Sequence record: OP795442
Source: Escherichia phage A7_1
Length of the DNA stretch: 64,000 bases
Strand: one strand, 5' to 3'
The stretch's first letter is position 1, and each line of letters begins with the position of its first letter. The translations under genes and the position numbers were made by a program. The notes below the pieces were generated by a model. It was not told the DNA's origin. It worked only from the letters and a program-made list of their open reading frames with translations, and searched no databases. Below, one piece after another: positions 5,245 to 37,981 of this stretch.

Positions 5245-6240
5245 ATGCATAATGGTGATTTTCAAATCCTGGATTACACTGGCCTGATCTCTACTCTGCC
5301 GCGTGTTGATACCCTGCTTCAAAGCATGAACCTGTTCACTGAGAACTTTGGTCGTACCACTATCGCTAAAATCGAACGTCGTGATGACGGTGCTGGTCAG
5401 ATCAATGCTGTACAGCGTGGTAGCGTTCGTCAGCACCTGGGTAATGATCGTAAAAAGATCGTCAACCTGAATATCCCGTTCTTCCCTCTGGACCGTTCCA
5501 TTGACCGTGCTGATATCCAGAACTTCCGTGAATTCGGTACTGAAAATGCTCCGGCAACTGTTGAAGCTGAAGTAGCTCGTCACCTGGCTCGTATCCGTCG
5601 TAGTCATGCGGTTCTGAAATCCAAGGCAATGTACGCTGCTCTGAAAGGTACTTCCTGGTCGCCAAATGATCCGGTTTGTGATTACGACTACTACGATGTT
5701 TGGGGTGTAACCCAGCAGACTGCTGATGTTGACTTCACCTCTCTGGCTGTTGACCCGATTGAAGTGCTGGAAGCTGAAGCTCGTGCACATATCATCGATT
5801 ACGCAGGTGATCAAGGCGACAACTACGAGATCGTTGTTATGGCATCCCGTCAGTGGTTCTCTGCTCTGATTTCTCACCCGCAGGTAACTGGTGCATACTC
5901 TCAGTATCCGTCTACTCAGGAAATCCTGCGTCGTCGTCTGGGCGGTAATGCTAATAACCGTATCTTCGAACACAAGAACATCCTGTTCATCGAAGACATT
6001 TCCGGTAACATCCCTGCTGGTGAAGCATACATCTTCCCTCGTGGTATCGATCGTATGTTCGAAATCTATTACGCGCCGAGCGACACTCTGGAAGGTGCTA
6101 ACCAAGTAGCTCAGGAACTGTATGTATTCTTCAAAGAATCTCAGTACCTGCGTGAAGCGAAGATCGAATCTGAAACTTCCTTCCTGACTGTTAACAACCG
6201 TCCTGAACTGGTAGTTAAGTCTGTTGGTAAGTTTGAGTAA
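5245..6240 (+). CDS. major capsid protein (lambda E-like)
   Basis: 331 aa, strong RBS (AAGGAGA), strongly optimised codons, followed by a strong terminator; position after scaffold and decoration genes. Confidence 0.75.
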   Translation: MHNGDFQILDYTGLISTLPRVDTLLQSMNLFTENFGRTTIAKIERRDDGAGQINAVQRGSVRQHLGNDRKKIVNLNIPFFPLDRSIDRADIQNFREFGTENAPATVEAEVARHLARIRRSHAVLKSKAMYAALKGTSWSPNDPVCDYDYYDVWGVTQQTADVDFTSLAVDPIEVLEAEARAHIIDYAGDQGDNYEIVVMASRQWFSALISHPQVTGAYSQYPSTQEILRRRLGGNANNRIFEHKNILFIEDISGNIPAGEAYIFPRGIDRMFEIYYAPSDTLEGANQVAQELYVFFKESQYLREAKIESETSFLTVNNRPELVVKSVGKFE

Positions 6241-7002: not shown

Positions 7003-10000
7003 ATGGCTGAATATAATGATAAGGTCGTGGAAGCATTCGTTACTGCCCCAGATCCTGTCGTAACTACCACTGGTGGTGGAGTTATTTTTGACGGTATTGA
7101 AACAGAAGATACTGTATCAACCCTGCTGATTGGTGATGGTACTGCATCCTCCCCTTTACAAGCGCAAGTCAAACTTTCTCGCCGTGCTGGTAACGCCCTG
7201 ACTATCGTTCAATCCGATACCGAGCAAGGCTTGTTTGCTACTGCCGGAGATGCTAAAGTTTCAGCTTCTCAAGTGAACATTGCAAAATACGTAACTGCGG
7301 AAGAAGCTGCTGCACAAGGCGATGCAGGTCTGGAAGGTATTTTGGTAGAGCCTGTCCATGCGACCACCACCGCAGTTGGCGATGCCTTGGAAATTACCGC
7401 AGATCCTTTGACGGCTAAAAAATCCCGCATTTCCCTGAAAGTTTCCCCTTCCGCAACCAACGCGTTATCTGTAGAGTCAGATGGATTGGCAGTTAAAGTC
7501 TCTCCTGCCGTTGACAACAGCCTGCAAGTCCGTGAAGGTGCACTTTACGTAGCTCCTGTTGGTGCTGATATTTCTCAAGACCCAGGTAACAAACTGGAAC
7601 AGCGTTCAGATGGACTGTTCGTAGAAACCATCAAAGGCGACAAAGGTGATCAGGGCGAGCAAGGACCAGAAGGTCCTCAAGGCCCAGCAGGGGAAGCTGG
7701 ACCTGCTGGACCACAGGGTGAAAAAGGCGACAAAGGCGATCAAGGTGAAGTCGGCCCTGCTGGCGCAACTGGCCCTGCTGGCCTGACTGGTGCAACTGGT
7801 CCTCGTGGTATAGAAGGACCTCGTGGCCCTGCTGGTATTGGTATTAATATCCTAGACACCCTTGCATCTGAAGACCAATTACCTTCTGTTGTTGATCTTT
7901 CGAATGGGGATACCTATGTAATAGGACAGAGTTTCTTTACCGTTATCACTGAAGGTGGTATCAAACAATGGAGAAACGTAGGTAACTTCGCTGGACCTGA
8001 AGGTCTTTCTGCATTTGAAGTTGCTGAAACCGCAGGCTTTGTTGGAACAGTTGATGACTGGTTGGCTACCCTTCGTGGTGCTGATGGAATCGGTCTGCAA
8101 TTACTCGGTTCTTTCCAACGAATTGAAGACCTTCCGGCAGAAGAGAACAACCCAGGCGATGCCTACATCATCCAAGAAAAGATGTATGTTTGGACTGGTG
8201 ATACAGATGGCTGGCAACCTGTAGGACAGATCGGTCCTGAAGGTCGTTCTGCTTATCAGGTCTGGCTGGCTAACGGGAACGTAGGTTCTCAGCGTGAATT
8301 CCTTGAATCACTGAAAGGTGAGAAAGGTGATACTGGCGATCAGGGTCCTCAGGGTATCCCAGGTGCAGATGGTAAAAATGCTAACGCCATTAATATCTTA
8401 GGTTCCGTTGCAGATCAGGCGAGTTTGCCAGAAGGTGCAGATGCAGGTGATGCTTACCTGATCGGTACTAACGTATTCGTTTCTGATGGTGCTGGCAACT
8501 GGCAAGACTTGGGATCTTTCCAAGGTCCGCAAGGTCCTACTGGTGCTAAAGGCGACAAGGGGGACAAAGGGGATAAAGGGGACAAAGGCGATAAAGGTGA
8601 TGACAACTATGCCATCGCAGTTGCTAACGGTTTCCAAGGATCAGTAAATGAATACCTTGCATCTATCAAGGGTGAGAAAGGTGACGTTGGTGCAACTGGC
8701 CCTCGTGGATTAGCTGGTCCACAAGGTGAACAAGGTCCTGTTGGTGCGGGTCTGAATATCCTTGGCTCAGTAGCTTCCGAAGACCAATTGCCTCAGACTG
8801 GTATTAGTGAAGGTGATGCTTATCTGATTGAAGCTGATCTTTATATCTTTACTGGCGGTCAGTGGACTAACGTTGGTAACATCAAAGGTCCCCAAGGGGA
8901 TGTAGGACCACAAGGTCCACAAGGTCCTATTGGTCTGACTGGGGCACAAGGACCGCAGGGTGCAACAGGGGCACAAGGTCCTGCTGGTCCCCAAGGTGAG
9001 ACTGGTCCACAAGGTGGTATTGGTCCACAGGGCGAGACTGGCGAGAAAGGTGACAAGGGCGATAAGGGTGATAAGGGTGATACTGGAATTGGTATCGTTG
9101 CTCGTGGTATTGTTGCAACTCAAGAAGCACTTCCTGCCGATGCCACCACTGGTGACTTCTACGTTGTAGAGTCTGAAGGTAATGGTTATGCTTGGGACGG
9201 CACTGCATGGGTACTGACTGGTCTTACTCGTGGACCTCAGGGTCTGAAGGGCGACAAAGGCGACACTGGTGAGAAAGGAGACAAAGGAGACAAAGGCGAC
9301 GCAGGTGATGCACTGAAGCTGAAAGGTTTGGTTGCAACCTCCGCTGAACTTCCTTCTACTGCTGAATTAGGTGACTTCTACGTAGCTGAAGACACTGGGA
9401 TCGGTTACGCTTGGGATGGCGTGGAATTCGTTTCTGCCGGAACCGTTAGAGGACCGCAAGGTGAAGTAGGGCCTCAGGGTGAAATTGGTCCTCAAGGACC
9501 GCAAGGCGAGAAGGGAGATGCTGGCGACCAAGGACCTCAAGGATTGGTCGGTGAAACAGGTGCAAAAGGTGATAAAGGGGATAAGGGTGACGTTGGCTCT
9601 GGTCTGATTCCGAGAGGAACTTTACCGTCTCAAGCAGACCTTCCTCAAACTGGTGAAGTTGGTGACTTCTACGTAGCTAACGATACTGGTATTGGATATG
9701 CTTTTGACGGAACTACATTCGTAGAAGCTGGCGTTGCCCGTGGTCCACAGGGTGAACAAGGACCTCAGGGTGAACAGGGACCTCAAGGTCTTAAAGGGGA
9801 TACTGGTGAAACAGGTGCTCAGGGACCTCAAGGTGCTCAAGGTGAGAAAGGTGATACCGGAGAACGTGGAGAGGTAGGTCCGCAAGGTGATCAGGGTCCG
9901 CAAGGTGAGCAAGGTCCTCAGGGTGATATCGGACCAGGTGTAGAGATCATTGGACGATTTGATACCTCTGATGAATTACCTTCCACGGGTACTTTGGGTC

Positions 10001-10803
10001 AAGGTTACCTTATCCAAGGCGACTTCTGGGGTTGGACTGGTGCAGCATACGAGAACTTGGGTCGTATTCAAGGTCCGGTTGGACCAGTAGGTCCTACGGG
10101 TGACCAAGGACCACAAGGCCCTGTCGGTAACAAAGGCGATAAAGGCGACCAAGGGACCCTTTGGGTAGTTTTTGCTCGTGCACCAATGGTGAGCGATGGT
10201 CGTGTTAACGACCTGTACCTCAACTCTTCCACTCTGGAATATTACCGTAAAACTTCCGCAACGAACTGGGCACTGCTCGGATTCTTAGGTGGTGGTAACG
10301 TGTATGACGCACCAGGGGACGGAAAGCTGTATGTCCGTACTGATGGTGGTTGGGTTGAATTACCTACCGCAGAAGTTCTGGAAGCACCTCGTGATGGTAA
10401 CCAATACGTCCGTAAAGACGGCGCTTGGACAACTGTTACAGTTCCTGTAACGGAAGCACCACTTGAAGGTGGATTCTACGTCCGTGAAAATGGTGCGTGG
10501 GTTAAACTGGATCAGTACGATTTACGTGTTGTTGCTTCAACTGGTGCAATTGATGCAAGCTCTGGTAATGCTTGGACTTTAGATGGTACAACCAACAAGT
10601 CCTTGACTATCACCGGATTGCCAGCAGGAAGGGCTAAAACCATAGTTTTACGATTCACTGGTAACGGTGGTCAGATTAACTGGGATAGCCAGATCGCTTG
10701 GTCTAACGGAACAGCACCTACTCTCGGGGCTACTCGCACTATCCTAACCTTGTTCTGGGATGGTGAGTTCCTGACGGGTACTCAAGCAATGACTATAGGT
10801 TAA
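7003..10803 (+). CDS. collagen-like repeat fiber protein
   Basis: 1266 aa with many Gly-X-Y runs (GPQGPQG, KGDKGD) alternating with about 8 copies of a module 'LP..G..GD.Y...W.G..W' and SAY...WL-SLKGEKGD motifs; C-terminal non-collagen domain. Confidence 0.85.
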   Translation: MAEYNDKVVEAFVTAPDPVVTTTGGGVIFDGIETEDTVSTLLIGDGTASSPLQAQVKLSRRAGNALTIVQSDTEQGLFATAGDAKVSASQVNIAKYVTAEEAAAQGDAGLEGILVEPVHATTTAVGDALEITADPLTAKKSRISLKVSPSATNALSVESDGLAVKVSPAVDNSLQVREGALYVAPVGADISQDPGNKLEQRSDGLFVETIKGDKGDQGEQGPEGPQGPAGEAGPAGPQGEKGDKGDQGEVGPAGATGPAGLTGATGPRGIEGPRGPAGIGINILDTLASEDQLPSVVDLSNGDTYVIGQSFFTVITEGGIKQWRNVGNFAGPEGLSAFEVAETAGFVGTVDDWLATLRGADGIGLQLLGSFQRIEDLPAEENNPGDAYIIQEKMYVWTGDTDGWQPVGQIGPEGRSAYQVWLANGNVGSQREFLESLKGEKGDTGDQGPQGIPGADGKNANAINILGSVADQASLPEGADAGDAYLIGTNVFVSDGAGNWQDLGSFQGPQGPTGAKGDKGDKGDKGDKGDKGDDNYAIAVANGFQGSVNEYLASIKGEKGDVGATGPRGLAGPQGEQGPVGAGLNILGSVASEDQLPQTGISEGDAYLIEADLYIFTGGQWTNVGNIKGPQGDVGPQGPQGPIGLTGAQGPQGATGAQGPAGPQGETGPQGGIGPQGETGEKGDKGDKGDKGDTGIGIVARGIVATQEALPADATTGDFYVVESEGNGYAWDGTAWVLTGLTRGPQGLKGDKGDTGEKGDKGDKGDAGDALKLKGLVATSAELPSTAELGDFYVAEDTGIGYAWDGVEFVSAGTVRGPQGEVGPQGEIGPQGPQGEKGDAGDQGPQGLVGETGAKGDKGDKGDVGSGLIPRGTLPSQADLPQTGEVGDFYVANDTGIGYAFDGTTFVEAGVARGPQGEQGPQGEQGPQGLKGDTGETGAQGPQGAQGEKGDTGERGEVGPQGDQGPQGEQGPQGDIGPGVEIIGRFDTSDELPSTGTLGQGYLIQGDFWGWTGAAYENLGRIQGPVGPVGPTGDQGPQGPVGNKGDKGDQGTLWVVFARAPMVSDGRVNDLYLNSSTLEYYRKTSATNWALLGFLGGGNVYDAPGDGKLYVRTDGGWVELPTAEVLEAPRDGNQYVRKDGAWTTVTVPVTEAPLEGGFYVRENGAWVKLDQYDLRVVASTGAIDASSGNAWTLDGTTNKSLTITGLPAGRAKTIVLRFTGNGGQINWDSQIAWSNGTAPTLGATRTILTLFWDGEFLTGTQAMTIG
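8548..8601 (+). repeat. tandem 9-bp repeat encoding (KGD)6
   Basis: aaa-ggN-gaY repeated six times in frame inside the collagen-like gene; similar shorter arrays at 7725-7745, 9043-9081 and 9250-9300. Confidence 0.8.
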
Positions 10804-18234: not shown

Positions 18235-20658
18235 ATGGCTGTTGAAGTAATTGCAACAACAAAGAACCGTGTCATATTTGAAACTGACAAAGGTTCCTAT
18301 CGAAAAGCTCGTGAAGAGATTCGAAAACTCTCTAACGAATGGAAAAAGGCTTCAACAGAGGCTACTGCTGCCGGAAAGAATTCTCCTGCTGAGGCTTATA
18401 AACAATCTGCCCGTGAAATGCGATTAGTCAGTAAACGTTTGGAAGAAACTCGCAAACGTGAAGAGAAGAAAGCGACAGATTATCGTATTGCTCTGGCAAA
18501 GAAAGAAGCCAAGGCAAAGGAAGCGATCCAAAAGGTTTCTGCTGCAAAAATACGACAACAGGTTAAAAGCCTGACGGCTGCATCCCCTGGTTCTGCTGAG
18601 ATGAGAAAGTTCTATCAGGAACAGGAGAAAGCTGCCCGTGCTGCTGCAAGATCTGCAAACCGTACAGCGACACCTTTACCGCCTTTCAACATCCAACGTG
18701 TGGAAGCTGCAAATCAATTATTATCTCGCGGTAACAGAGAGCCAGGGTCAGGTATTGTTGGAGATCCTAATAGCCGATTCAACCCTGATTTAATTGCTGC
18801 ACAAAACAGAGCGATGCAACGTAGTTCTCGTATCAAAGAGAGAATGCAGAAGCAACAAACTCAAGAACAGGAACGTGAACGTGTCCGCGCTGCTCGTGCT
18901 GCTGCCCGTATTGATGATGTTACAGCACAACAACGTATTCGTCTATCCTCTCGATATGGTCGTGGTTATGCAGGTGCTTTGGGTCGTGATTCAGAGGGTC
19001 GTGGGATTGAAGATCTTAATAGACAATTCCGTGCGGGTACATTATCATCTGGACAATATCGACAAAGTGTTCAGGCACTCGAAAGACAATTTCGCGCCGC
19101 ACAATCAAGTGCTGGGTCTTTCTCTTCTACGTTGAGAGATATTCGTTCTAACTTGGTAAGTGCTACGGCTGCATATGGTGTTTTCTCCGCAGGTGCATCA
19201 ATCACTCGTCAAGGTCAATTCTTCGAAGGTATTAATGCAACCTCCTTGCTGATCTCTGATTCAGCAGAAGAGGCTGGTCAGCGTGTTAAGTTTGTTCGTG
19301 ACGAAGCATACCGTTTAGGTTTGGATCTGAAAACTGCATCGCAGGGATTTACCCAGTTAGCGATCTCTGCTGATGGTGTTATTAGTAAATCTCAAACAGA
19401 CGAATTATTTAGTGCATTTTCTGAATATTCCACCGCACTTCAGGTCGATCCCGTAAGATATCAGCGTGGCATTACAGCAATTCAACAGATCCTTGGTAAA
19501 GGTCAAGTAATGGCTGAAGAACTAAAGGGTCAGTTGGCTGAAGCAATTCCTGGTTCTTTACAGGTATTCTTGAAAGCAACTCAAGAAGCATTCGGCGACA
19601 CCTCTATCGACATTGCAAAATTGTTGAAGTTGATGGAAGATGGTGAATTGAAAGCCTCCAAGATCATACCCCTGGTTGGAAAATACTATGCAGAAGCTGC
19701 TAATAAGGGTGGCGCACTGGATAAAGCTTTAGAAAGTAACCGTGTTGCTTACCAGCGTTTAACTCAGACTTTTGCAGAGTTTCAAAACAGAATATTCCAA
19801 GGTGGCTTTGGTGAACAACTGACAAGAGTTTTCAATAACTTAGCTACAATCCTATCAAGCAATGGTAACGTTGCAAGCACCATCGGTAGATTCTTCGGTA
19901 ACGTAATTGAAGGATTTACAGACATGGTTCTTGAAATACATGATAACCTTGTCCTTTTGGATCGTGTGGTGTCTTATTACTTCAAGAAAATAGGTGTTGA
20001 AGGTGATACTCTTCGTCAAGTGTTTGATTGGGGTTCTTATCTCCTTGGTATCGGATTGTTCCTCGGCGGTCTAACTAAAGTGTTTAATATCCTAGCTAAG
20101 ATTGCAGGATTAAAAGGTGCACTTAAGGAGATTCGTGGAACCCTTGGTGGAGATTTAGCTACGGGTGGAAAAACCACAACTGGTGCAAACACTACAGCCT
20201 CTGGTGGCGCAACTACCCCAGGTAAGACAAGTGTAGCTGGAAGATTCAGTCAACTTGGTAAGCTTGGTAAGCTTTTTGGCCTTGGTACGCTTTATTCAGC
20301 AGGGTCAGAAATCAATGACCGCTTTATCCAAAGTGGAGAGAGCCGATTGGCTGGAGCAGGGCTTGACGCAACAGCTTTCCAGCAGCAATATGGTGTAACT
20401 CCACAACCTGTCGGGTTAACTGATGTGTTCAGAGAGTTGTTTGGTGGCTCTCGTGACATAACTGTAGATCCTAACACTATCTCGACTCCATCTGGTATTC
20501 GCCCTAGCGGATTTCCTCTGGAAACTCCAGCAGCACCACCTGAAGGTAAGATCACCGTTGAGATCAAGAGTGGAGAGATTCGTCAATATATCCGTGCAAT
20601 TGTGGATGAAGAGAACGGATTCAATATCAACCTGCTCACTCAGGGTGGTAACCAATAA
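18235..20658 (+). CDS. tail tape measure protein
   Basis: 807 aa, Ala/Arg/Gln-rich helical N-terminal region and Gly-rich hydrophobic segment; directly downstream of the frameshifted chaperone pair. Confidence 0.8.
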   Translation: MAVEVIATTKNRVIFETDKGSYRKAREEIRKLSNEWKKASTEATAAGKNSPAEAYKQSAREMRLVSKRLEETRKREEKKATDYRIALAKKEAKAKEAIQKVSAAKIRQQVKSLTAASPGSAEMRKFYQEQEKAARAAARSANRTATPLPPFNIQRVEAANQLLSRGNREPGSGIVGDPNSRFNPDLIAAQNRAMQRSSRIKERMQKQQTQEQERERVRAARAAARIDDVTAQQRIRLSSRYGRGYAGALGRDSEGRGIEDLNRQFRAGTLSSGQYRQSVQALERQFRAAQSSAGSFSSTLRDIRSNLVSATAAYGVFSAGASITRQGQFFEGINATSLLISDSAEEAGQRVKFVRDEAYRLGLDLKTASQGFTQLAISADGVISKSQTDELFSAFSEYSTALQVDPVRYQRGITAIQQILGKGQVMAEELKGQLAEAIPGSLQVFLKATQEAFGDTSIDIAKLLKLMEDGELKASKIIPLVGKYYAEAANKGGALDKALESNRVAYQRLTQTFAEFQNRIFQGGFGEQLTRVFNNLATILSSNGNVASTIGRFFGNVIEGFTDMVLEIHDNLVLLDRVVSYYFKKIGVEGDTLRQVFDWGSYLLGIGLFLGGLTKVFNILAKIAGLKGALKEIRGTLGGDLATGGKTTTGANTTASGGATTPGKTSVAGRFSQLGKLGKLFGLGTLYSAGSEINDRFIQSGESRLAGAGLDATAFQQQYGVTPQPVGLTDVFRELFGGSRDITVDPNTISTPSGIRPSGFPLETPAAPPEGKITVEIKSGEIRQYIRAIVDEENGFNINLLTQGGNQ

Positions 20659-34170: not shown

Positions 34171-34206
34171 GAAAAGGCGCTCAAATGAGCGCCTTTATTT
34201 TTATCT
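34171..34206. terminator. bidirectional terminator between convergent modules
   Basis: AAAGGCGCTC-AAAT-GAGCGCCTTT hairpin flanked by an A-tract upstream and ATTTTTAT downstream; sits between plus-strand stop 34169 and minus-strand stop 34218. Confidence 0.75.
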
Positions 34207-34217
34207 AAATTTTACGA

Positions 34218-35393
34218 TCAAAACGGAATATCGTCGTCAAAATCCATATCATCTACAGACATATTTACATGTCCTTCAATATCAGGGGTAGGTGAATCTT
34301 CTGCTGACGGAGTTAACTGCGGTTCCGGCTCAGGTTTCTTTTCCTCTTGCTTAGGAGTTGAAGCACCGTTACGGATCTTATCTTCCAATTGACAGATGAA
34401 TCGGAAATTCTCTTCAGTCTTAGCAATAAAGGTTTCGATATTGTCACGACCCCAACGGGCAGAAAGAATGCCACACTGGCCTAAACGAGCACCGAAAGAG
34501 TAATCATCCATAGATTTAAACTCTTCACGCAGTTTTGCTTTGATCGAATCCATCGCTGCAAGAACTTGTTCTACGATCACACCCTGATTTGCAATAGTTT
34601 CATCAGGGAACATTGCATCGGTAATAGACAGTGCATTACCTAAACGAATAGGTAGATCATCTTTACCTTTACCTGAACGTGATCCTGTTCCAGTACTTGC
34701 ACCTTTTGGACCGTAAGCTTTAAAGCCTGTAACCGTACCATCATCTGAACGAACACCTGCAATACGACCACCTTCTGTAATCTGACCCGCCTGTTCATCA
34801 GTGAGGTTTACAGTAACTTCTGTGCCGTCTTCCAGCTTAACAACTACCTTATTGCCTTCAATAGATGTGATATCACCATAAATCTTCTTAGCTGCACCAC
34901 CAGACGGCTTTTGCTGCTGTTGGGAACCACTTGATTGCTGCTGTTTCTGACGAGGCTCACGAGCACCGGATGCGTCAGTAATTTTGATACGTGCTTTCTT
35001 ACCTTCTGTAGAAGAACCTTGACTACCATCTTCTTTGGTATAGGTCTTGATAACAACAGGTAAACGAATTTTCATACCCTCTTTAAGATCAGTGTAACCA
35101 CCTTCAGGATTTTTAATCTGGAACTGATTCTCATACTTCAGGTTTTTAACTTCACCCTCACCAAAAGAAATCCATGCTTGATCTTCACCTTCTTTAAGAA
35201 GAACCGCATAGCGGTGGGTATTGTTAATGCTTTTCTGCTGACCAGTATTCTTGTCTTTGAAGGTAGTCACTCGTGGGCTACCATCTTCATTAATACGTTT
35301 GATCATGATACGTTCAATCGTACCTGCTGCAATGTTTACTGTGGTATCGGAAACAGCATCGTATACAGCATTGATAACTTTAACTTCAGACAT
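34218..35393 (-). CDS. single-stranded DNA-binding protein (SSB-like, acidic C-terminal tail)
   Basis: 391 aa; Gly/Ser/Gln-rich linker; C-terminus ...DDMDFDDDIPF matches the bacterial SSB tail motif (DDDIPF). Confidence 0.6.
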   Translation of the reverse strand: MSEVKVINAVYDAVSDTTVNIAAGTIERIMIKRINEDGSPRVTTFKDKNTGQQKSINNTHRYAVLLKEGEDQAWISFGEGEVKNLKYENQFQIKNPEGGYTDLKEGMKIRLPVVIKTYTKEDGSQGSSTEGKKARIKITDASGAREPRQKQQQSSGSQQQQKPSGGAAKKIYGDITSIEGNKVVVKLEDGTEVTVNLTDEQAGQITEGGRIAGVRSDDGTVTGFKAYGPKGASTGTGSRSGKGKDDLPIRLGNALSITDAMFPDETIANQGVIVEQVLAAMDSIKAKLREEFKSMDDYSFGARLGQCGILSARWGRDNIETFIAKTEENFRFICQLEDKIRNGASTPKQEEKKPEPEPQLTPSAEDSPTPDIEGHVNMSVDDMDFDDDIPF

Positions 35394-35476: not shown

Positions 35477-35857
35477 TTAGAGATAAACTCGCTTAACTTT
35501 TTCATGAACATTATCAAACAAAGTGTTGATCATCTGCAAGTCTTTAATAAGTTCTTCCGTAAATTGTTCTTCTTTGTGAGCAAACACACGAGAACGGTCA
35601 ATGTTTACGGGATCTGCACTTTGGTCACCAGACAGGTCGAAAATGTCGATACCAATACGAGCACGACCTTTTTCAATCTTATTCTCATCATCAATACCAT
35701 AAACACTCATGATTTGCATTTCACGATCTTCTTCACTGTTTGTGTAAATGATCGTCGTATTCAAATTCTTAACACCATCGTAAATGTGAATGTTACGTGT
35801 CGCAGAGATAGGAATCCAATCAGCAACCAAATAATCTTTACCGTCGAAAATACTCAT
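35477..35857 (-). CDS. hypothetical protein
   Basis: 126 aa ORF in the minus-strand operon; no motif recognised. Confidence 0.5.
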   Translation of the reverse strand: MSIFDGKDYLVADWIPISATRNIHIYDGVKNLNTTIIYTNSEEDREMQIMSVYGIDDENKIEKGRARIGIDIFDLSGDQSADPVNIDRSRVFAHKEEQFTEELIKDLQMINTLFDNVHEKVKRVYL

Positions 35858-35911
35858 CTTCTTTCCTCTTTTGTTTAAGTGGGGCCATTATGCCCCACAC
35901 TTAACTTTCTG

Positions 35912-36499
35912 TCAAGGACGTTTCGGTGGACTAACGACACCTTTTTTAGATAAAGGTAATTCGTCTGCATCTTTTCCACGAAGAGATTCTAGCCACTCAT
36001 CTAAAGACAGGGGTACTTTACCATCACCTTTGGACCATACAGATAAGCAATACAGATCGTATGCAGATGGACCTCGATCACCTTTGTCACCATTCAACCC
36101 TTTTAAACTATCCAGCCAATCCTTCTCATTTAGTGGGATAGCGCCAGGATCTTCTTTACGAAGAACTCTCAGGTATGTTTCATAAGCAGACTCTCCACGG
36201 GGACCAATTGGACCAGGTAAACCTTGCGGTCCCTTTGCATACTCAAGACACTTAGAATCTAAATATGCAGACTTTGAACCATCATTAACCACTGAAACTT
36301 TATACAATGACCAAGCCAACAGAACTATCCAACAAGCAAACAATGCAAGCGGGTAAGGGATCATTGAAGTAAAGAATGACAGGGCTAAAATTACAACCTT
36401 GTTCTTGTGATCACGACGGAAAGCGATGATCACAGGGGCTAACCAGATAGCAAAGATAACCCACGCAGATAAGATAAACAACCAACTAATGTATTCCAT
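35912..36499 (-). CDS. membrane protein with collagen / fiber-like SAY...WL-SLKG modules
   Basis: 195 aa; two N-terminal hydrophobic helices; two copies of G(P/E)SAY...WL(D/E)SL(K/R)G plus short Gly-X-Y stretches, the same module as in the 7003-10803 fiber protein. Confidence 0.6.
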   Translation of the reverse strand: MEYISWLFILSAWVIFAIWLAPVIIAFRRDHKNKVVILALSFFTSMIPYPLALFACWIVLLAWSLYKVSVVNDGSKSAYLDSKCLEYAKGPQGLPGPIGPRGESAYETYLRVLRKEDPGAIPLNEKDWLDSLKGLNGDKGDRGPSAYDLYCLSVWSKGDGKVPLSLDEWLESLRGKDADELPLSKKGVVSPPKRP

Positions 36500-36687
36500 T
36501 AAGCCTCCTCAGTATCGTCTTTAAAGTAATCTAACATCCAACTCTCTACAGGTTTCGCATAGTAACCTGTTCGCCCTTTCTTTTGGAACTCCATAACAAT
36601 TTCATTTGCAATACTTTTTGTGATTGCGATCCCGATTAGTGCTCCACCAGGACCCATTACTGCGTGTGAACTAAAAACATTACTCAT
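36499..36687 (-). CDS. hypothetical small protein
   Basis: 62 aa; stop overlaps the start of the downstream gene. Confidence 0.4.
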   Translation of the reverse strand: MSNVFSSHAVMGPGGALIGIAITKSIANEIVMEFQKKGRTGYYAKPVESWMLDYFKDDTEEA

Positions 36688-36751
36688 ATTTAACCCCCTT
36701 TATTCTCTCCGCAACCGACAAGAAGAAGTATACATAAAATGATTAACCTCT

Positions 36752-36904
36752 TCAATAGCTACCTCCAAAATATTTTGTAGCCTCTACTGCAAATATTGTC
36801 CCAAGTATGAACCATGTCGCACTTAGCACGTTGAAAGGTAAAAACCTCGATCCTGCAAGAGAAACCATAATAAAAAATGTTACAAAAATCTCTGGAGAAA
36901 TCAT
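36752..36904 (-). CDS. small membrane protein (50 aa, not in ORF track)
   Basis: ATG overlaps the upstream stop (ATGA); translation MISPEIFVTFFIMVSLAGSRFLPFNVLSATWFILGTIFAVEATKYFGGSY is strongly hydrophobic. Confidence 0.3.
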   Translation of the reverse strand: MISPEIFVTFFIMVSLAGSRFLPFNVLSATWFILGTIFAVEATKYFGGSY

Positions 36905-37305
36905 CATTGTTTGATAGCCCCTTTGGCAATCATCTCGTCAAGTTCATCTTCCGCACGACACATGATTTGGTAGATAGTTTCTGGATTGTTTAAGAATTCT
37001 GTGTACTTCTTGATACGACAAACTAAACGTGCACGAACTTTACGCTCACGGGCCACATGATTAAAGTAATGTCCCTTTTGTCTGTAGACCCAAGCATAAT
37101 ATACAGTTTTTGCTCTCTGGCGATCAGAACCTAAACGTTCAGCTAATTCCGTGTACGGGTCATTGTTGGTTGGACCAAACAAAAATATTTCTGCAAAACT
37201 TTCCTTCATGATACGAGCTTCTTCATCCGTAACTCGCGGACATTCTTCAGAACCGTAACGTGGGGTTTTAGTGGCATTTGGCTTCTTAGGGTATACTTTA
37301 CGCAT
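36904..37305 (-). CDS. hypothetical basic protein
   Basis: 133 aa with GAGGAG RBS; Arg/Lys-rich, possible nucleic-acid binding. Confidence 0.5.
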   Translation of the reverse strand: MRKVYPKKPNATKTPRYGSEECPRVTDEEARIMKESFAEIFLFGPTNNDPYTELAERLGSDRQRAKTVYYAWVYRQKGHYFNHVARERKVRARLVCRIKKYTEFLNNPETIYQIMCRAEDELDEMIAKGAIKQ

Positions 37306-37372: not shown

Positions 37373-37981
37373 TCAATCACAACTGCTTGAAGAACTGCTA
37401 CTGCTACTATCCGAAGAATAACTATCGTAAGATGATGAGCTATCATACGAACTTGATCGACTTGAAGAACAGTAAGAACTTGAACTACTTGTACGATCTT
37501 CACTGGATGACATTACGGCAGCATACGTTGCCACACCACCTAAAGCTGCCACCTGAGGATCAACCTGGCTAGTTCCATATCCGTTTGGAGAGTCGCTCAT
37601 TTTACGTGGCGCTGCCCGACGTGCCTGATCAATATATTGTCGCTTTGCCTTCGGTGGTAATTTCTTACCTTGAGCATAAGACGGCAGTTCAACACCCTTC
37701 AGTTGTTCATCCAAAGGTTTCGGCGGCGTAGCCTGTGATTTTGGTCGTTCAACAGAGATATCAACAACCTTCATCGTCTTATCTTTGATGTTTAACCCAA
37801 CCAATACCTCATTTTCTTTTAATGGTTCTTCCAGATCGCGTGTTTCAACTGGACCGAATTTAACGCTTTCAGTTTCCTGACGCTGTTCGGCCTGCTTTGC
37901 AATATACTTGTCGATCGCCGCAGTTTCTACTTCCAGCGGAATAAACAGTGATTTTACCCAAGCAACAAACTTCTTGATCAT
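37373..37981 (-). CDS. hypothetical protein with Ser-rich C-terminal tail
   Basis: 202 aa; last about 50 residues are almost entirely Ser with Tyr/Asp/Cys (...SSSSSYCSSSRSSSYDSSSSYDSYSSDSSSSSSSSSCD). Confidence 0.5.
   Translation of the reverse strand: MIKKFVAWVKSLFIPLEVETAAIDKYIAKQAEQRQETESVKFGPVETRDLEEPLKENEVLVGLNIKDKTMKVVDISVERPKSQATPPKPLDEQLKGVELPSYAQGKKLPPKAKRQYIDQARRAAPRKMSDSPNGYGTSQVDPQVAALGGVATYAAVMSSSEDRTSSSSSYCSSSRSSSYDSSSSYDSYSSDSSSSSSSSSCD

What the first reader, a model, noticed from the sequence alone, without database searches (positions are those of the whole stretch)
35912..36499. Early-region inner-membrane protein carrying the fiber SAY...WL-SLKG module
Seen in sequence: two N-terminal transmembrane helices followed by GPQGLPGPIGPRGESAYETYL...WLDSLKG and GPSAYDLY...WLESLRG, the same module that recurs in the 7003-10803 structural fiber, but encoded on the opposite strand among early genes. 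Inference: possible domain capture from the fiber gene. A membrane-displayed fiber module could act in superinfection exclusion or receptor masking. A 50 aa hydrophobic ORF is translationally coupled just upstream.
Basis: partly seen in the sequence, partly recalled or inferred. Interest (0 to 1): 0.5.

Follow-up and report, generated by a model that had tools for sequence, protein, structure and literature searches.

The report
Imm-type exclusion protein with collagen stalk
This early phage gene encodes a relative of the phage T4 Imm protein, which stops a second phage injecting its DNA, here extended by a short collagen-like stalk with two copies of a common tail-fibre repeat; this combination is recorded in databases but I found no description of it in print.

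Summary
The ORF at 35912..36499 (-), 195 aa, is real. The window is a Septuagintavirus (Vequintavirinae) E. coli phage.

The N-terminal membrane domain is a homologue of T4 Imm (Pfam PF14373): profile-profile probability 97.4%, E 1.1e-11.

The two SAY..WL.SL[KR]G modules are also real. They are divergent copies of a repeat found in tail fibres of many unrelated phages. They were not recently copied from this phage's fibre gene: there is no nucleotide similarity, and protein identity is only 41% over 51 aa.

Same-position orthologues in Certrevirus, Salmonella phage SSBI34 and metagenomic relatives share three parts:
- the Imm-like domain;
- 4-13 Gly-X-Y triplets;
- an invariant C-terminal peptide, G[KR]DADEIPLSKxGVLKPRK.

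They carry 0, 1 or 2 modules, so the modules are a variable stalk element.

Canonical Imm homologues have signal peptides before the first membrane helix and zinc ribbons after the domain. This implies N-terminus out and C-terminus in, so the stalk is probably cytoplasmic. That argues against receptor masking.

Best reading: an Imm-type block on genome delivery, trimerised by the stalk. This is a new variant of a known kind and of moderate interest.

The parts
35912..36499 (-). Whole ORF, 195 aa plus stop: Imm-like membrane domain, collagen/fibre-repeat stalk and conserved C-terminal peptide.
   Evidence: It is 91-97% identical in five Septuagintavirus genomes. Purifying selection: pN/pS 0.2 overall.
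36290..36499 (-). Residues 1-70: Imm_superinfect-like membrane domain. Helix 2-28, loop RRDHKNK, helices 34-46 and 48-71 with a turn at invariant P48.
   Evidence: phrog_15593 6e-19 and phrog_1039 'immunity to superinfection' 1e-5. PF14373 E 0.0017 here; matched by 6 of the 7 aligned family members, best E 1.8e-5. hhalign against T4-type Imm proteins: 97.4%, E 1.1e-11. AF2 helices. pN/pS 0.08.
36398..36418 (-). Residues 28-34, RRDHKNK: conserved basic loop. R29 aligns with T4 Imm R33.
   Evidence: R29, H31 and N33 are invariant or nearly so in 28 family members. Aligned to T4 R33 by hhalign. R33A weakens T4 Imm (bioRxiv 10.64898/2026.03.06.709160).
36233..36289 (-). Residues 71-89: variable juxtamembrane segment. 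It includes SKSAYLDSKCLEYAKG, a possible collapsed third module.
   Evidence: A 5-aa deletion in A73, W70 and A5-4. Module HMM score only 0.7 bits. Highest pN/pS, 0.34.
36188..36232 (-). Residues 90-104: five Gly-X-Y triplets (GPQGLPGPIGPRGES).
   Evidence: G90, G93 and G96 are invariant across the family. Weak PF01391 hit here; PF01391 is precomputed for several orthologues.
36098..36190 (-). Module 1, residues 104-134: SAYETYLRVLRKEDPGAIPLNEKDWLDSLKG.
   Evidence: 15.6 bits, 0 of 400 shuffles reach it. AF2 predicts helix-loop-helix, 105-116 and 125-133.
36065..36100 (-). Residues 134-145: four Gly-X-Y triplets linking the two modules.
35975..36067 (-). Module 2, residues 145-175: SAYDLYCLSVWSKGDGKVPLSLDEWLESLRG.
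   Evidence: 14.1 bits, 0 of 400 shuffles reach it. It aligns with the single module of P0027, P0028, P0035, P0099 and P0101.
35915..35977 (-). Residues 175-195: conserved C-terminal peptide GKDADELPLSKKGVVSPPKRP.
   Evidence: G175, D177, A178, P182, L183, G187 and V188 are invariant in 28 members. The core [IV]P[LIM]SK.G is kept in the more distant members that retain a C-terminal tail. No non-synonymous changes among five genomes. It is found nowhere else in the window.
36499..36687 (-). Upstream 62-aa ORF. Its TAA stop overlaps the ATG (TAATG).
   Evidence: Annotated as A73_116 and W70_102. No family hit.
35887..35915 (-). Sigma-70-type promoter TTGACA-17-CATAAT (11 of 12) overlapping the ORF's stop codon. 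It faces the downstream DUF7325 gene.
   Evidence: It is the only match that stands out: 11 promoter-like sites were found against 10.6 expected by chance.
7003..10803 (+). Structural collagen-like fibre ORF, carrying three canonical 24-aa modules at 8008-8079, 8248-8319 and 8602-8673.

Best explanation
The gene encodes a non-structural inner-membrane protein of the T4 Imm (Imm_superinfect) family, made early in infection.

Inferred function, by analogy with T4 Imm: it sits in the inner membrane and stops the tape-measure protein of a later-arriving related phage from opening a DNA channel, so that phage's genome is not delivered.

What is special is a C-terminal extension that runs on from the 'P..VVVQG' juxtamembrane motif of Imm proteins. 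It has 4-5-triplet Gly-X-Y segments, two helix-loop-helix 'SAY...WL.SL[KR]G' tail-fibre repeats, and an invariant acidic-then-basic end peptide.

I infer that the collagen and repeat part makes a trimeric stalk. This would hold three Imm domains together, matching the 3- or 6-fold tape-measure assembly, and would present the end peptide to an unknown partner.

Fusion architectures of canonical Imm proteins suggest the stalk is more likely cytoplasmic than periplasmic.

Shown: the homology, the architecture, its conservation and variability, and selective constraint.
Inferred: the exclusion function, the tape-measure target, trimerisation and sidedness.
For: Imm homology:
- PHROG and Pfam hits.
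- 6 of the 7 aligned family members match PF14373.
- The weaker tblastn hits of the 70-aa domain include many genes annotated as imm or superinfection immunity, in T4-like, FelixO1-like and Acinetobacter phages; most remaining listed hits are unannotated hypothetical proteins.
- hhalign against T4, S13, phiEa21-4, PS2 and P1068 Imm: 97.4%, E 1.1e-11.
- The family profile recovers small proteins of which all 30 scanned match PF14373, 27 of them at or above the gathering threshold, from 1.84 billion representatives.
- UniRef already names the CR8 and PBES 02 orthologues 'Superinfection immunity protein'.

Mechanism of the prototype:
- T4 Imm binds the tape-measure protein, and R33A and W50A weaken exclusion (bioRxiv 10.64898/2026.03.06.709160).
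- R29 here aligns with R33 and is nearly invariant.
- This phage's tape measure, 18235..20658, has a membrane-like segment at residues 602-624.

Architecture:
- 37 clusters at 90% identity, and about 25 representatives at 50%, share the Imm domain, Gly-X-Y triplets and the DADEIPLSK tail. They always sit at the same syntenic place, upstream of DUF7325.
- The stalk varies: 4-13 triplets and 0, 1 or 2 modules.
- Both ends are strongly constrained: pN/pS 0.08 and 0.0, against 0.22 for the stalk.

Non-structural:
- The W70 orthologue, W70_103, does not appear in the text of the paper reporting the W70 virion proteome.

Sidedness:
- PF14373 proteins with signal peptides before the first helix: P0144, P0177, P0211.
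- PF14373 proteins with Cys4 zinc ribbons directly after the domain: P0153, P0165, P0222, P0231.
Against: - No functional data exist for any member of this subfamily.
- The window protein itself scores below Pfam's gathering threshold: 18.7 against 27.9 bits.
- The T4 W50 contact loop is not conserved. Here the turn is 6 residues longer, so the target could differ.
- The shortest family members have only 4 triplets, too few for a stable free collagen helix, so trimerisation is unproven.
- A plain hydropathy and positive-inside reading (N-out, loop in, one more span) would put the stalk in the periplasm. The AF2 model is low confidence overall (pTM 0.27) and gave no coordinates to settle hairpin against span.
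- A role for a cytoplasmic stalk in blocking injection is not obvious.
Confidence: 0.55

Rival explanations
1. Same Imm-type exclusion protein, but with the stalk in the periplasm (N-out, C-out). A trimeric collagen rod would reach towards the incoming tail tube and catch the tail tip or tape measure before it touches the membrane.
For: - Hydropathy shows two stretches with an acidic N-terminus, a +2 to +5 loop and a neutral or acidic flank after the second stretch.
- The second stretch is 31 residues, 6 longer than in T4 Imm, and AF2 gives a 24-residue last helix.
- Relatives encode a lipoprotein just upstream of this gene: overlapping its start in Certrevirus, one gene away in A73. This suggests a cluster of envelope-directed genes.
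Against: - Canonical Imm domains are followed directly by zinc ribbons, which are cytoplasmic, in four independent proteins. In P0226 the domain is followed by another hydrophobic, membrane-like segment before a large soluble C-terminal region.
- An invariant mid-stretch proline suggests a hairpin turn.
- The far C-terminus is strongly basic.
Confidence: 0.2
2. One reading: a membrane-displayed copy of a fibre module masks the receptor or competes with adsorption.
For: The module is shared with the structural fibre.
Against: - The anchor is an inner-membrane Imm domain, so it cannot reach outer-membrane or flagellar receptors.
- The module is an internal spacer flanked by collagen in fibres of many phages with different hosts. 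It is not a receptor-binding tip.
- Most orthologues have no module.
- The stalk is probably cytoplasmic.
Confidence: 0.03
3. A membrane-integrity or lysis-timing protein rather than an injection block. Examples: a holin- or antiholin-like protein, protection against lysis from without, or the inner-membrane partner of the neighbouring lipoprotein, like a spanin pair.
For: - T4 Imm also contributes to resistance to lysis from without and to lysis inhibition, and has been said to resemble a holin (PMC6832632).
- A lipoprotein gene (A73_115, CR3_039) sits upstream in relatives: directly upstream in Certrevirus, one gene away in A73. Its signal region weakly matches Rz-like and Cor families.
Against: - The gene is not in a recognisable lysis cassette. 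It lies among early and replication genes next to a sigma-70 promoter.
- The lipoprotein gene is reduced to 21 codons in this phage while the Imm-like gene is intact and constrained.
- The spanin and Cor matches cover only the lipoprotein signal peptide.
Confidence: 0.1
4. A fibre-assembly factor: a membrane tether that nucleates or regulates trimerisation of the collagen-like fibre chains through the shared module.
For: It shares collagen segments and the module with two fibre proteins of the same phage. The stalk would lie in the compartment where fibres fold, if it is cytoplasmic.
Against: - Orthologues without modules exist in phages that keep similar fibres.
- The modules are a divergent subtype.
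- The most constrained parts are the Imm domain and the end peptide, not the module.
Confidence: 0.05

Closest known systems
Phage T4 Imm (gp imm, Pfam PF14373 Imm_superinfect)
   Same: - Homologous membrane domain: acidic N-terminus, first helix ending in LP..IIA, basic R.H.N loop, and a second hydrophobic stretch with a central turn.
- An early gene of a lytic myovirus.
- The essential T4 R33 is conserved as R29.
   Different: - 195 aa against 83 aa.
- The turn that carries T4 W50 is 6 residues longer, with an invariant proline.
- It carries a collagen-like and fibre-repeat stalk plus a conserved end peptide that T4 Imm lacks.
- The window protein alone is below Pfam's threshold.
Orthologues in Certrevirus (CR3_038, CR9_038, KaOmega gp38), Salmonella phage SSBI34 and metagenomic relatives
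   Same: Same genomic position, same Imm-like domain, Gly-X-Y triplets and the DADEIPLSK..KPRK end.
   Different: They are 103-154 aa. Most have no SAY..WL module and a few have one (P0027, P0028, P0035, P0099, P0101). The Septuagintavirus protein has two.
The 'SAY(E/Q)xAxxxGFxGTxxxWLxSL(K/R)G' repeat of collagen-like tail fibres (for example Erwinia PhiEaH1, Mycobacterium 40AC, Streptomyces Kradal, Listeria LPJP1, and this phage's 7003..10803 fibre)
   Same: It keeps both ends of the repeat and its position between Gly-X-Y segments.
   Different: The ORF's copies are 31 aa rather than 24. They lack the central GFxGT turn and sit in a non-virion membrane protein. No Pfam family or solved structure covers the repeat.
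Other injection-blocking exclusion proteins (HK97 gp15, P22 SieA)
   Same: They are inner-membrane proteins thought to act on genome delivery. The T4 preprint cites HK97 gp15 as also acting on the tape measure.
   Different: No sequence relationship was detected here. Those are prophage-expressed.

Membership tests
Imm_superinfect (PF14373, T4 Imm family) | Sequence match to the family model at or above the curated threshold. | tested here: inconclusive
   The window protein scores 18.7 bits against a gathering score of 27.9. However, 6 of the 7 aligned family members match, best E 1.8e-5, and three family clusters have a precomputed PF14373 hit. Profile-profile comparison to T4-type Imm gives 97.4%, E 1.1e-11. 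The family profile retrieves genuine PF14373 proteins.
Imm_superinfect (PF14373, T4 Imm family) | Signature: hydrophobic helix ending in (Y/W)xxPxxIA, a basic R.H.N(K) loop, then a second hydrophobic stretch with a central turn and conserved Trp. | tested here: met
   IWLAPVIIAFRRDHKNKVVIL...P48...W57...L61. P22, A26, R29, H31, N33, P48, W57 and L61 are invariant or nearly so.
Imm_superinfect (PF14373, T4 Imm family) | Inner-membrane location with the N-terminus in the periplasm. | not testable with these tools
   Indirect evidence only: an acidic N-terminus and a basic loop, and homologues with signal peptides ahead of the first helix.
Imm_superinfect (PF14373, T4 Imm family) | Blocks DNA entry of a superinfecting phage by binding its tape-measure protein. 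| not testable with these tools
   Known only for T4. This phage's tape measure has a hydrophobic segment.
Imm_superinfect (PF14373, T4 Imm family) | Small single-domain protein of about 60-100 aa. | tested here: not met
   195 aa with a 125-aa extension. Multi-domain PF14373 proteins do exist: zinc ribbon and SHOCT fusions.
Bacterial and phage collagen-like proteins (PF01391) | An uninterrupted run of Gly-X-Y triplets long enough for a triple helix. | tested here: inconclusive
   Runs of 5 and 4 triplets only. Pfam scores 14.3 bits against 27.2. Orthologues have 4-13 triplets, and several carry a precomputed PF01391 hit. Triple-helix formation was not testable.
Tail-fibre SAY..WL.SLKG repeat (no curated family) | Match to a profile of the repeat core that is better than shuffled sequence. 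| tested here: met
   15.6 and 14.1 bits, with 0 of 400 shuffles reaching these scores. The resident fibre's modules score 29-37 bits.
Virion (structural) fibre protein | Present in the virion, encoded in the structural module. | tested here: not met
   It lies on the opposite strand among early and replication genes. The orthologue W70_103 does not appear in the text of the paper reporting the W70 virion proteome.

The most novel reading that the evidence does not exclude
Tail-fibre building blocks (short collagen segments plus the SAY..WL repeat) have been re-used, repeatedly and in variable copy number, as a trimerising stalk on a non-structural Imm-family protein. This would make a three-fold symmetric immunity complex matched to the incoming tape-measure channel. 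Its invariant end peptide (DADEIPLSK..KPRK) would recruit a so-far unknown host or phage partner on the cytoplasmic face. That would be a second, unrecognised step in Imm-type exclusion.
Probability: 0.25. Interest if true: 0.6.

Novelty: new variant of a known kind. Interest (0 to 1): 0.45.

Why it matters
How T4 Imm works was addressed only in 2026, in a preprint reporting that it binds the tape measure. A natural subfamily with an added oligomerising stalk and a strictly conserved end peptide offers a handle on two questions: stoichiometry, and possible partners beyond the membrane domain.

It is also a clean case of structural fibre repeats being used outside the virion.

In practice, Septuagintavirus and Certrevirus phages are being considered for therapy. 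An exclusion gene affects how related phages behave together in cocktails.

As a side result, fusion architectures of PF14373 proteins give an argument for an N-out, C-in topology of the Imm domain.

Tried and rejected
- PADLOC: no hit for the ORF.
- NCBIfam: only sub-threshold collagen-adhesin and KCU-star matches.
- Pfam Sel_put on residues 102-128 is sub-threshold (17.8 against 25 bits) and confined to module-bearing members. I treated it as chance.
- PDB sequence searches with the C-terminal 126 aa, the fibre module region and the Imm alignment found only generic collagens or noise.
- Foldseek of the AF2 model against viral structures found only the orthologue itself. The model is too poor (pTM 0.27) for fold inference.
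- blastn of the ORF against the rest of the window found only 11-33-nt Gly-codon noise. This rejects a recent copy from the fibre gene.
- Literature: string searches for the repeat motif and for PF14373 gave nothing relevant. The 1993 paper on T4 Imm topology (PMC237878) is not held, so T4's C-terminal sidedness is not cited.
- The other proteins hit by the family profile at 7-11% coverage are plain collagens without the end peptide.
- The resemblance of DADEIPL to the SSB tail DDDIPF was considered. It is not pursued as a claim, because the motif here is internal rather than C-terminal.

Full report
**What is there**

The window is about 95% identical to Escherichia phages A73, W70, LTH01, UPEC06 and A5-4. 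These are Vequintavirinae, genus Septuagintavirus.

The + strand up to about 34.2 kb carries the structural genes. They include the tape measure at 18235..20658 and several collagen-like fibres. The - strand from 64 kb down to 34.2 kb carries early and replication genes, including a DNA polymerase.

The ORF at 35912..36499 (-) encodes 195 aa. It has a GAGGAGG ribosome-binding site, and its ATG overlaps the TAA of a 62-aa upstream ORF. In all five sequenced relatives it is annotated only as 'hypothetical protein'.

**The observation**

The module also occurs three times in the 7003..10803 fibre.

The similarity is more than chance:
- BLASTP against the fibre gives E 1e-7, 41% identity over 51 aa.
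- I built an HMM from 12 module cores, without their collagen flanks, taken from Erwinia, Mycobacterium, Streptomyces and Listeria phage fibres. It scores the ORF's two modules at 15.6 and 14.1 bits.
- None of 400 shuffles of each module reaches those scores. The fibre's own modules score 29-37 bits.

The ORF therefore carries divergent copies. They are 31 aa rather than 24, and the central GFxGT turn is replaced by a longer insert.

One detail was wrong. The translationally coupled ORF is the 62-aa one. The 51-aa hydrophobic ORF lies further upstream, at 36752..36907.

**The membrane domain is an Imm domain**

- Residues 6-69 match phrog_15593 (6e-19) and phrog_1039 'immunity to superinfection' (1e-5). 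They match Pfam PF14373 weakly: E 0.0017, below threshold.
- Six of the seven aligned family members match PF14373, best E 1.8e-5.
- In a tblastn of the 70-aa domain, many of the weaker hits are genes annotated imm or superinfection immunity, in T4-like, FelixO1-like and Acinetobacter phages. Most of the remaining listed hits are unannotated hypothetical proteins.
- A profile of seven orthologous N-terminal domains aligns to a profile of T4, S13, phiEa21-4, PS2 and P1068 Imm with 97.4% probability, E 1.1e-11.
- A profile of 28 family members, searched against 1.84 billion representatives, first recovers the family. It then recovers many small proteins; all 30 that I scanned match PF14373, 27 of them at or above the gathering threshold.

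T4 R33 aligns with R29 here, which is nearly invariant in the family. A 2026 preprint reports that R33A weakens exclusion. The T4 W50 turn corresponds to a turn that is 6 residues longer here and carries an invariant proline.

**The family and the status of the modules**

Same-position orthologues share three parts:
- the Imm-like domain;
- a run of Gly-X-Y triplets that begins at a 'P..VVVQG' motif;
- an almost invariant end, G[KR]DADEIPLSKxGVLKPRK.

The gene lies upstream of a DUF7325 gene, near the convergent end of the structural block. Orthologues occur in Certrevirus (CR3, CR9, KaOmega, DU_PP_I, POP15), Salmonella phage SSBI34 and metagenomic contigs.

The 'P..VVVQG' motif is also present in canonical Imm proteins P0144, P0179 and P0226.

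The middle of the protein is variable:
- 4 to 13 triplets;
- no module in most members;
- one module in P0027, P0028, P0035, P0099, P0100 and P0101;
- two modules only in the Septuagintavirus proteins.

P0101 comes from a contig with the same gene order as this window and has a single module. That module aligns with the start of module 1 and the end of module 2. The two-copy state therefore looks like a tandem duplication, or P0101 like a recombinational collapse.

More distant members (P0178, P0163, P0170) carry the canonical 24-aa form. By eye it is about two-thirds identical to the fibre's second module.

There is no nucleotide similarity between the ORF and the fibre gene. The modules are thus an old, exchangeable stalk element of this protein family, not a recent capture from the resident fibre.

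**Constraint**

Among five genomes, pN/pS differs by region:

| Region | pN/pS |
|---|---|
| Imm domain | 0.08 |
| Juxtamembrane segment | 0.34 |
| Stalk | 0.22 |
| End peptide | 0.0 |

The two ends look like the functional parts. The stalk looks like a tolerant but still constrained spacer.

**Which side of the membrane?**

A plain reading predicts a periplasmic C-terminus: acidic N-terminus, +3 loop, then one more span. Domain fusions in genuine PF14373 proteins argue otherwise:
- P0144, P0177 and P0211 have signal-peptide-like N-termini followed by a soluble region before the first helix. The N-terminus of the domain is therefore outside. This agrees with the preprint's statement for T4.
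- P0153, P0165, P0222 and P0231 have Cys4 zinc ribbons directly after the domain, with no further membrane segment. The C-terminus is therefore inside.
- P0226 has an extra hydrophobic, membrane-like segment before a large soluble C-terminal region.

N-out and C-in requires one span plus a re-entrant hairpin. This fits the conserved mid-stretch turn and the AF2 break at residue 47.

By homology the stalk is more likely cytoplasmic; I put this at about 0.7. Tail-fibre collagen segments normally fold in the cytoplasm. The longer hairpin in this subfamily leaves room for doubt.

**Mechanism**

The best-supported mechanism is Imm-type exclusion at the genome-delivery step. T4 Imm binds the helical-bundle domain of the tape measure and blocks channel formation. 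This phage's tape measure has a hydrophobic segment at residues 602-624.

The stalk is most simply an oligomerisation device, because collagen-like segments and the fibre repeat occur in trimeric fibres. The invariant end peptide implies a specific partner that I cannot name.

Receptor masking is very unlikely:
- the anchor is in the inner membrane;
- the module is a spacer, not a tip;
- most orthologues lack it;
- the stalk is probably cytoplasmic.

The W70 orthologue, W70_103, does not appear in the text of the paper reporting the W70 virion proteome.

**Comparison with what is known**

The domain combination is visible in precomputed annotations. SSBI34 has PF01391 plus PF14373, and UniRef names the CR8 and PBES 02 orthologues 'Superinfection immunity protein'. 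I found no paper describing it, the repeat or the end peptide. No solved structure matches.

It is a new variant of a known kind of protein.

**Limits**

- Nothing here is functional evidence.
- The AF2 model is poor overall (mean pLDDT 65, pTM 0.27).
- Trimerisation, sidedness and target are all inferences.
- The pN/pS figures are sums over non-independent pairs.

Noticed in passing
window 36690-36755 (-), compared with L001 (A73) 5266-5565: Relatives encode a 98-99-aa lipoprotein (A73_115, W70_101, CR3_039; lipobox LLVGC or LLSGC; phrog_15849). Its signal region weakly resembles Cor and Rz-like lipoproteins. It lies one or two genes upstream of the Imm-like gene. In this window a 224-nt deletion leaves only 21 codons: LKRLIILCILLLVGCGENKGG. 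The pairing of a lipoprotein with an Imm-like protein recalls receptor-blocking plus injection-blocking exclusion pairs.
   Followed up: partly
window 34218-35393 (-): The 391-aa protein two genes downstream (phrog_4477, function unknown) ends in ...MDFDDDIPF, the same acidic tail as E. coli SSB. It has no SSB Pfam match. It may be a phage single-strand-binding protein or a mimic of the SSB tail. The Imm-like protein's conserved DADE(I/L)PL loosely resembles this motif but is internal.
   Followed up: partly
window 35887-35915 (-) and 35879-35898: A near-consensus sigma-70 promoter (TTGACA-17-CATAAT) overlaps the stop codon of the ORF. A 7-bp G+C-rich hairpin follows immediately, spanning the -10 hexamer and the likely transcription start and lacking a T-run. 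Both lie ahead of the DUF7325 gene.
   Followed up: no
window 35477-35857 (-): A DUF7325 (PF24011) gene follows the Imm-like gene in every relative where the neighbour was annotated or called, including a 1.4-kb metagenomic fragment. The exception is the distant P0170. This may indicate a functional pair.
   Followed up: partly
window 36752-36907 (-): A 51-aa protein with two hydrophobic helices (phrog_22594). Its start overlaps the stop of the 133-aa ORF 36904-37305 (ATGA). A same-sized ORF (50-51 aa) sits at the same place in some Certrevirus genomes and in the P0101 contig. It is another small membrane protein in this cluster.
   Followed up: no
window 7003-10803 (+): The 1266-aa fibre alternates collagen runs with at least six copies of a repeat of about 35 aa (LP...GD.Y.I.......W...G). 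It also has a Fibritin_C (foldon-like) match at residues 1083-1122.
   Followed up: partly
window 37373-37981 (-): The 202-aa protein (phrog_13005) ends in a serine-rich tail of about 45 residues: SSSEDRTSSSSSYCSSSRSSSYDSSSSYDSYSSDSSSSSSSSSCD.
   Followed up: no
window 34173-34196: A perfect 10-bp stem (AAAGGCGCTC...GAGCGCCTTT) with T-runs on both strands. It is a two-way terminator between the convergent structural and early gene blocks.
   Followed up: no
window 35912-36499 (-), five-genome comparison: Synonymous divergence is three to four times higher in the stalk and juxtamembrane segment (pS 0.23-0.31) than in the Imm domain and end peptide (about 0.07). This suggests recombination or repeat-driven turnover confined to the middle of the gene.
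   Followed up: no
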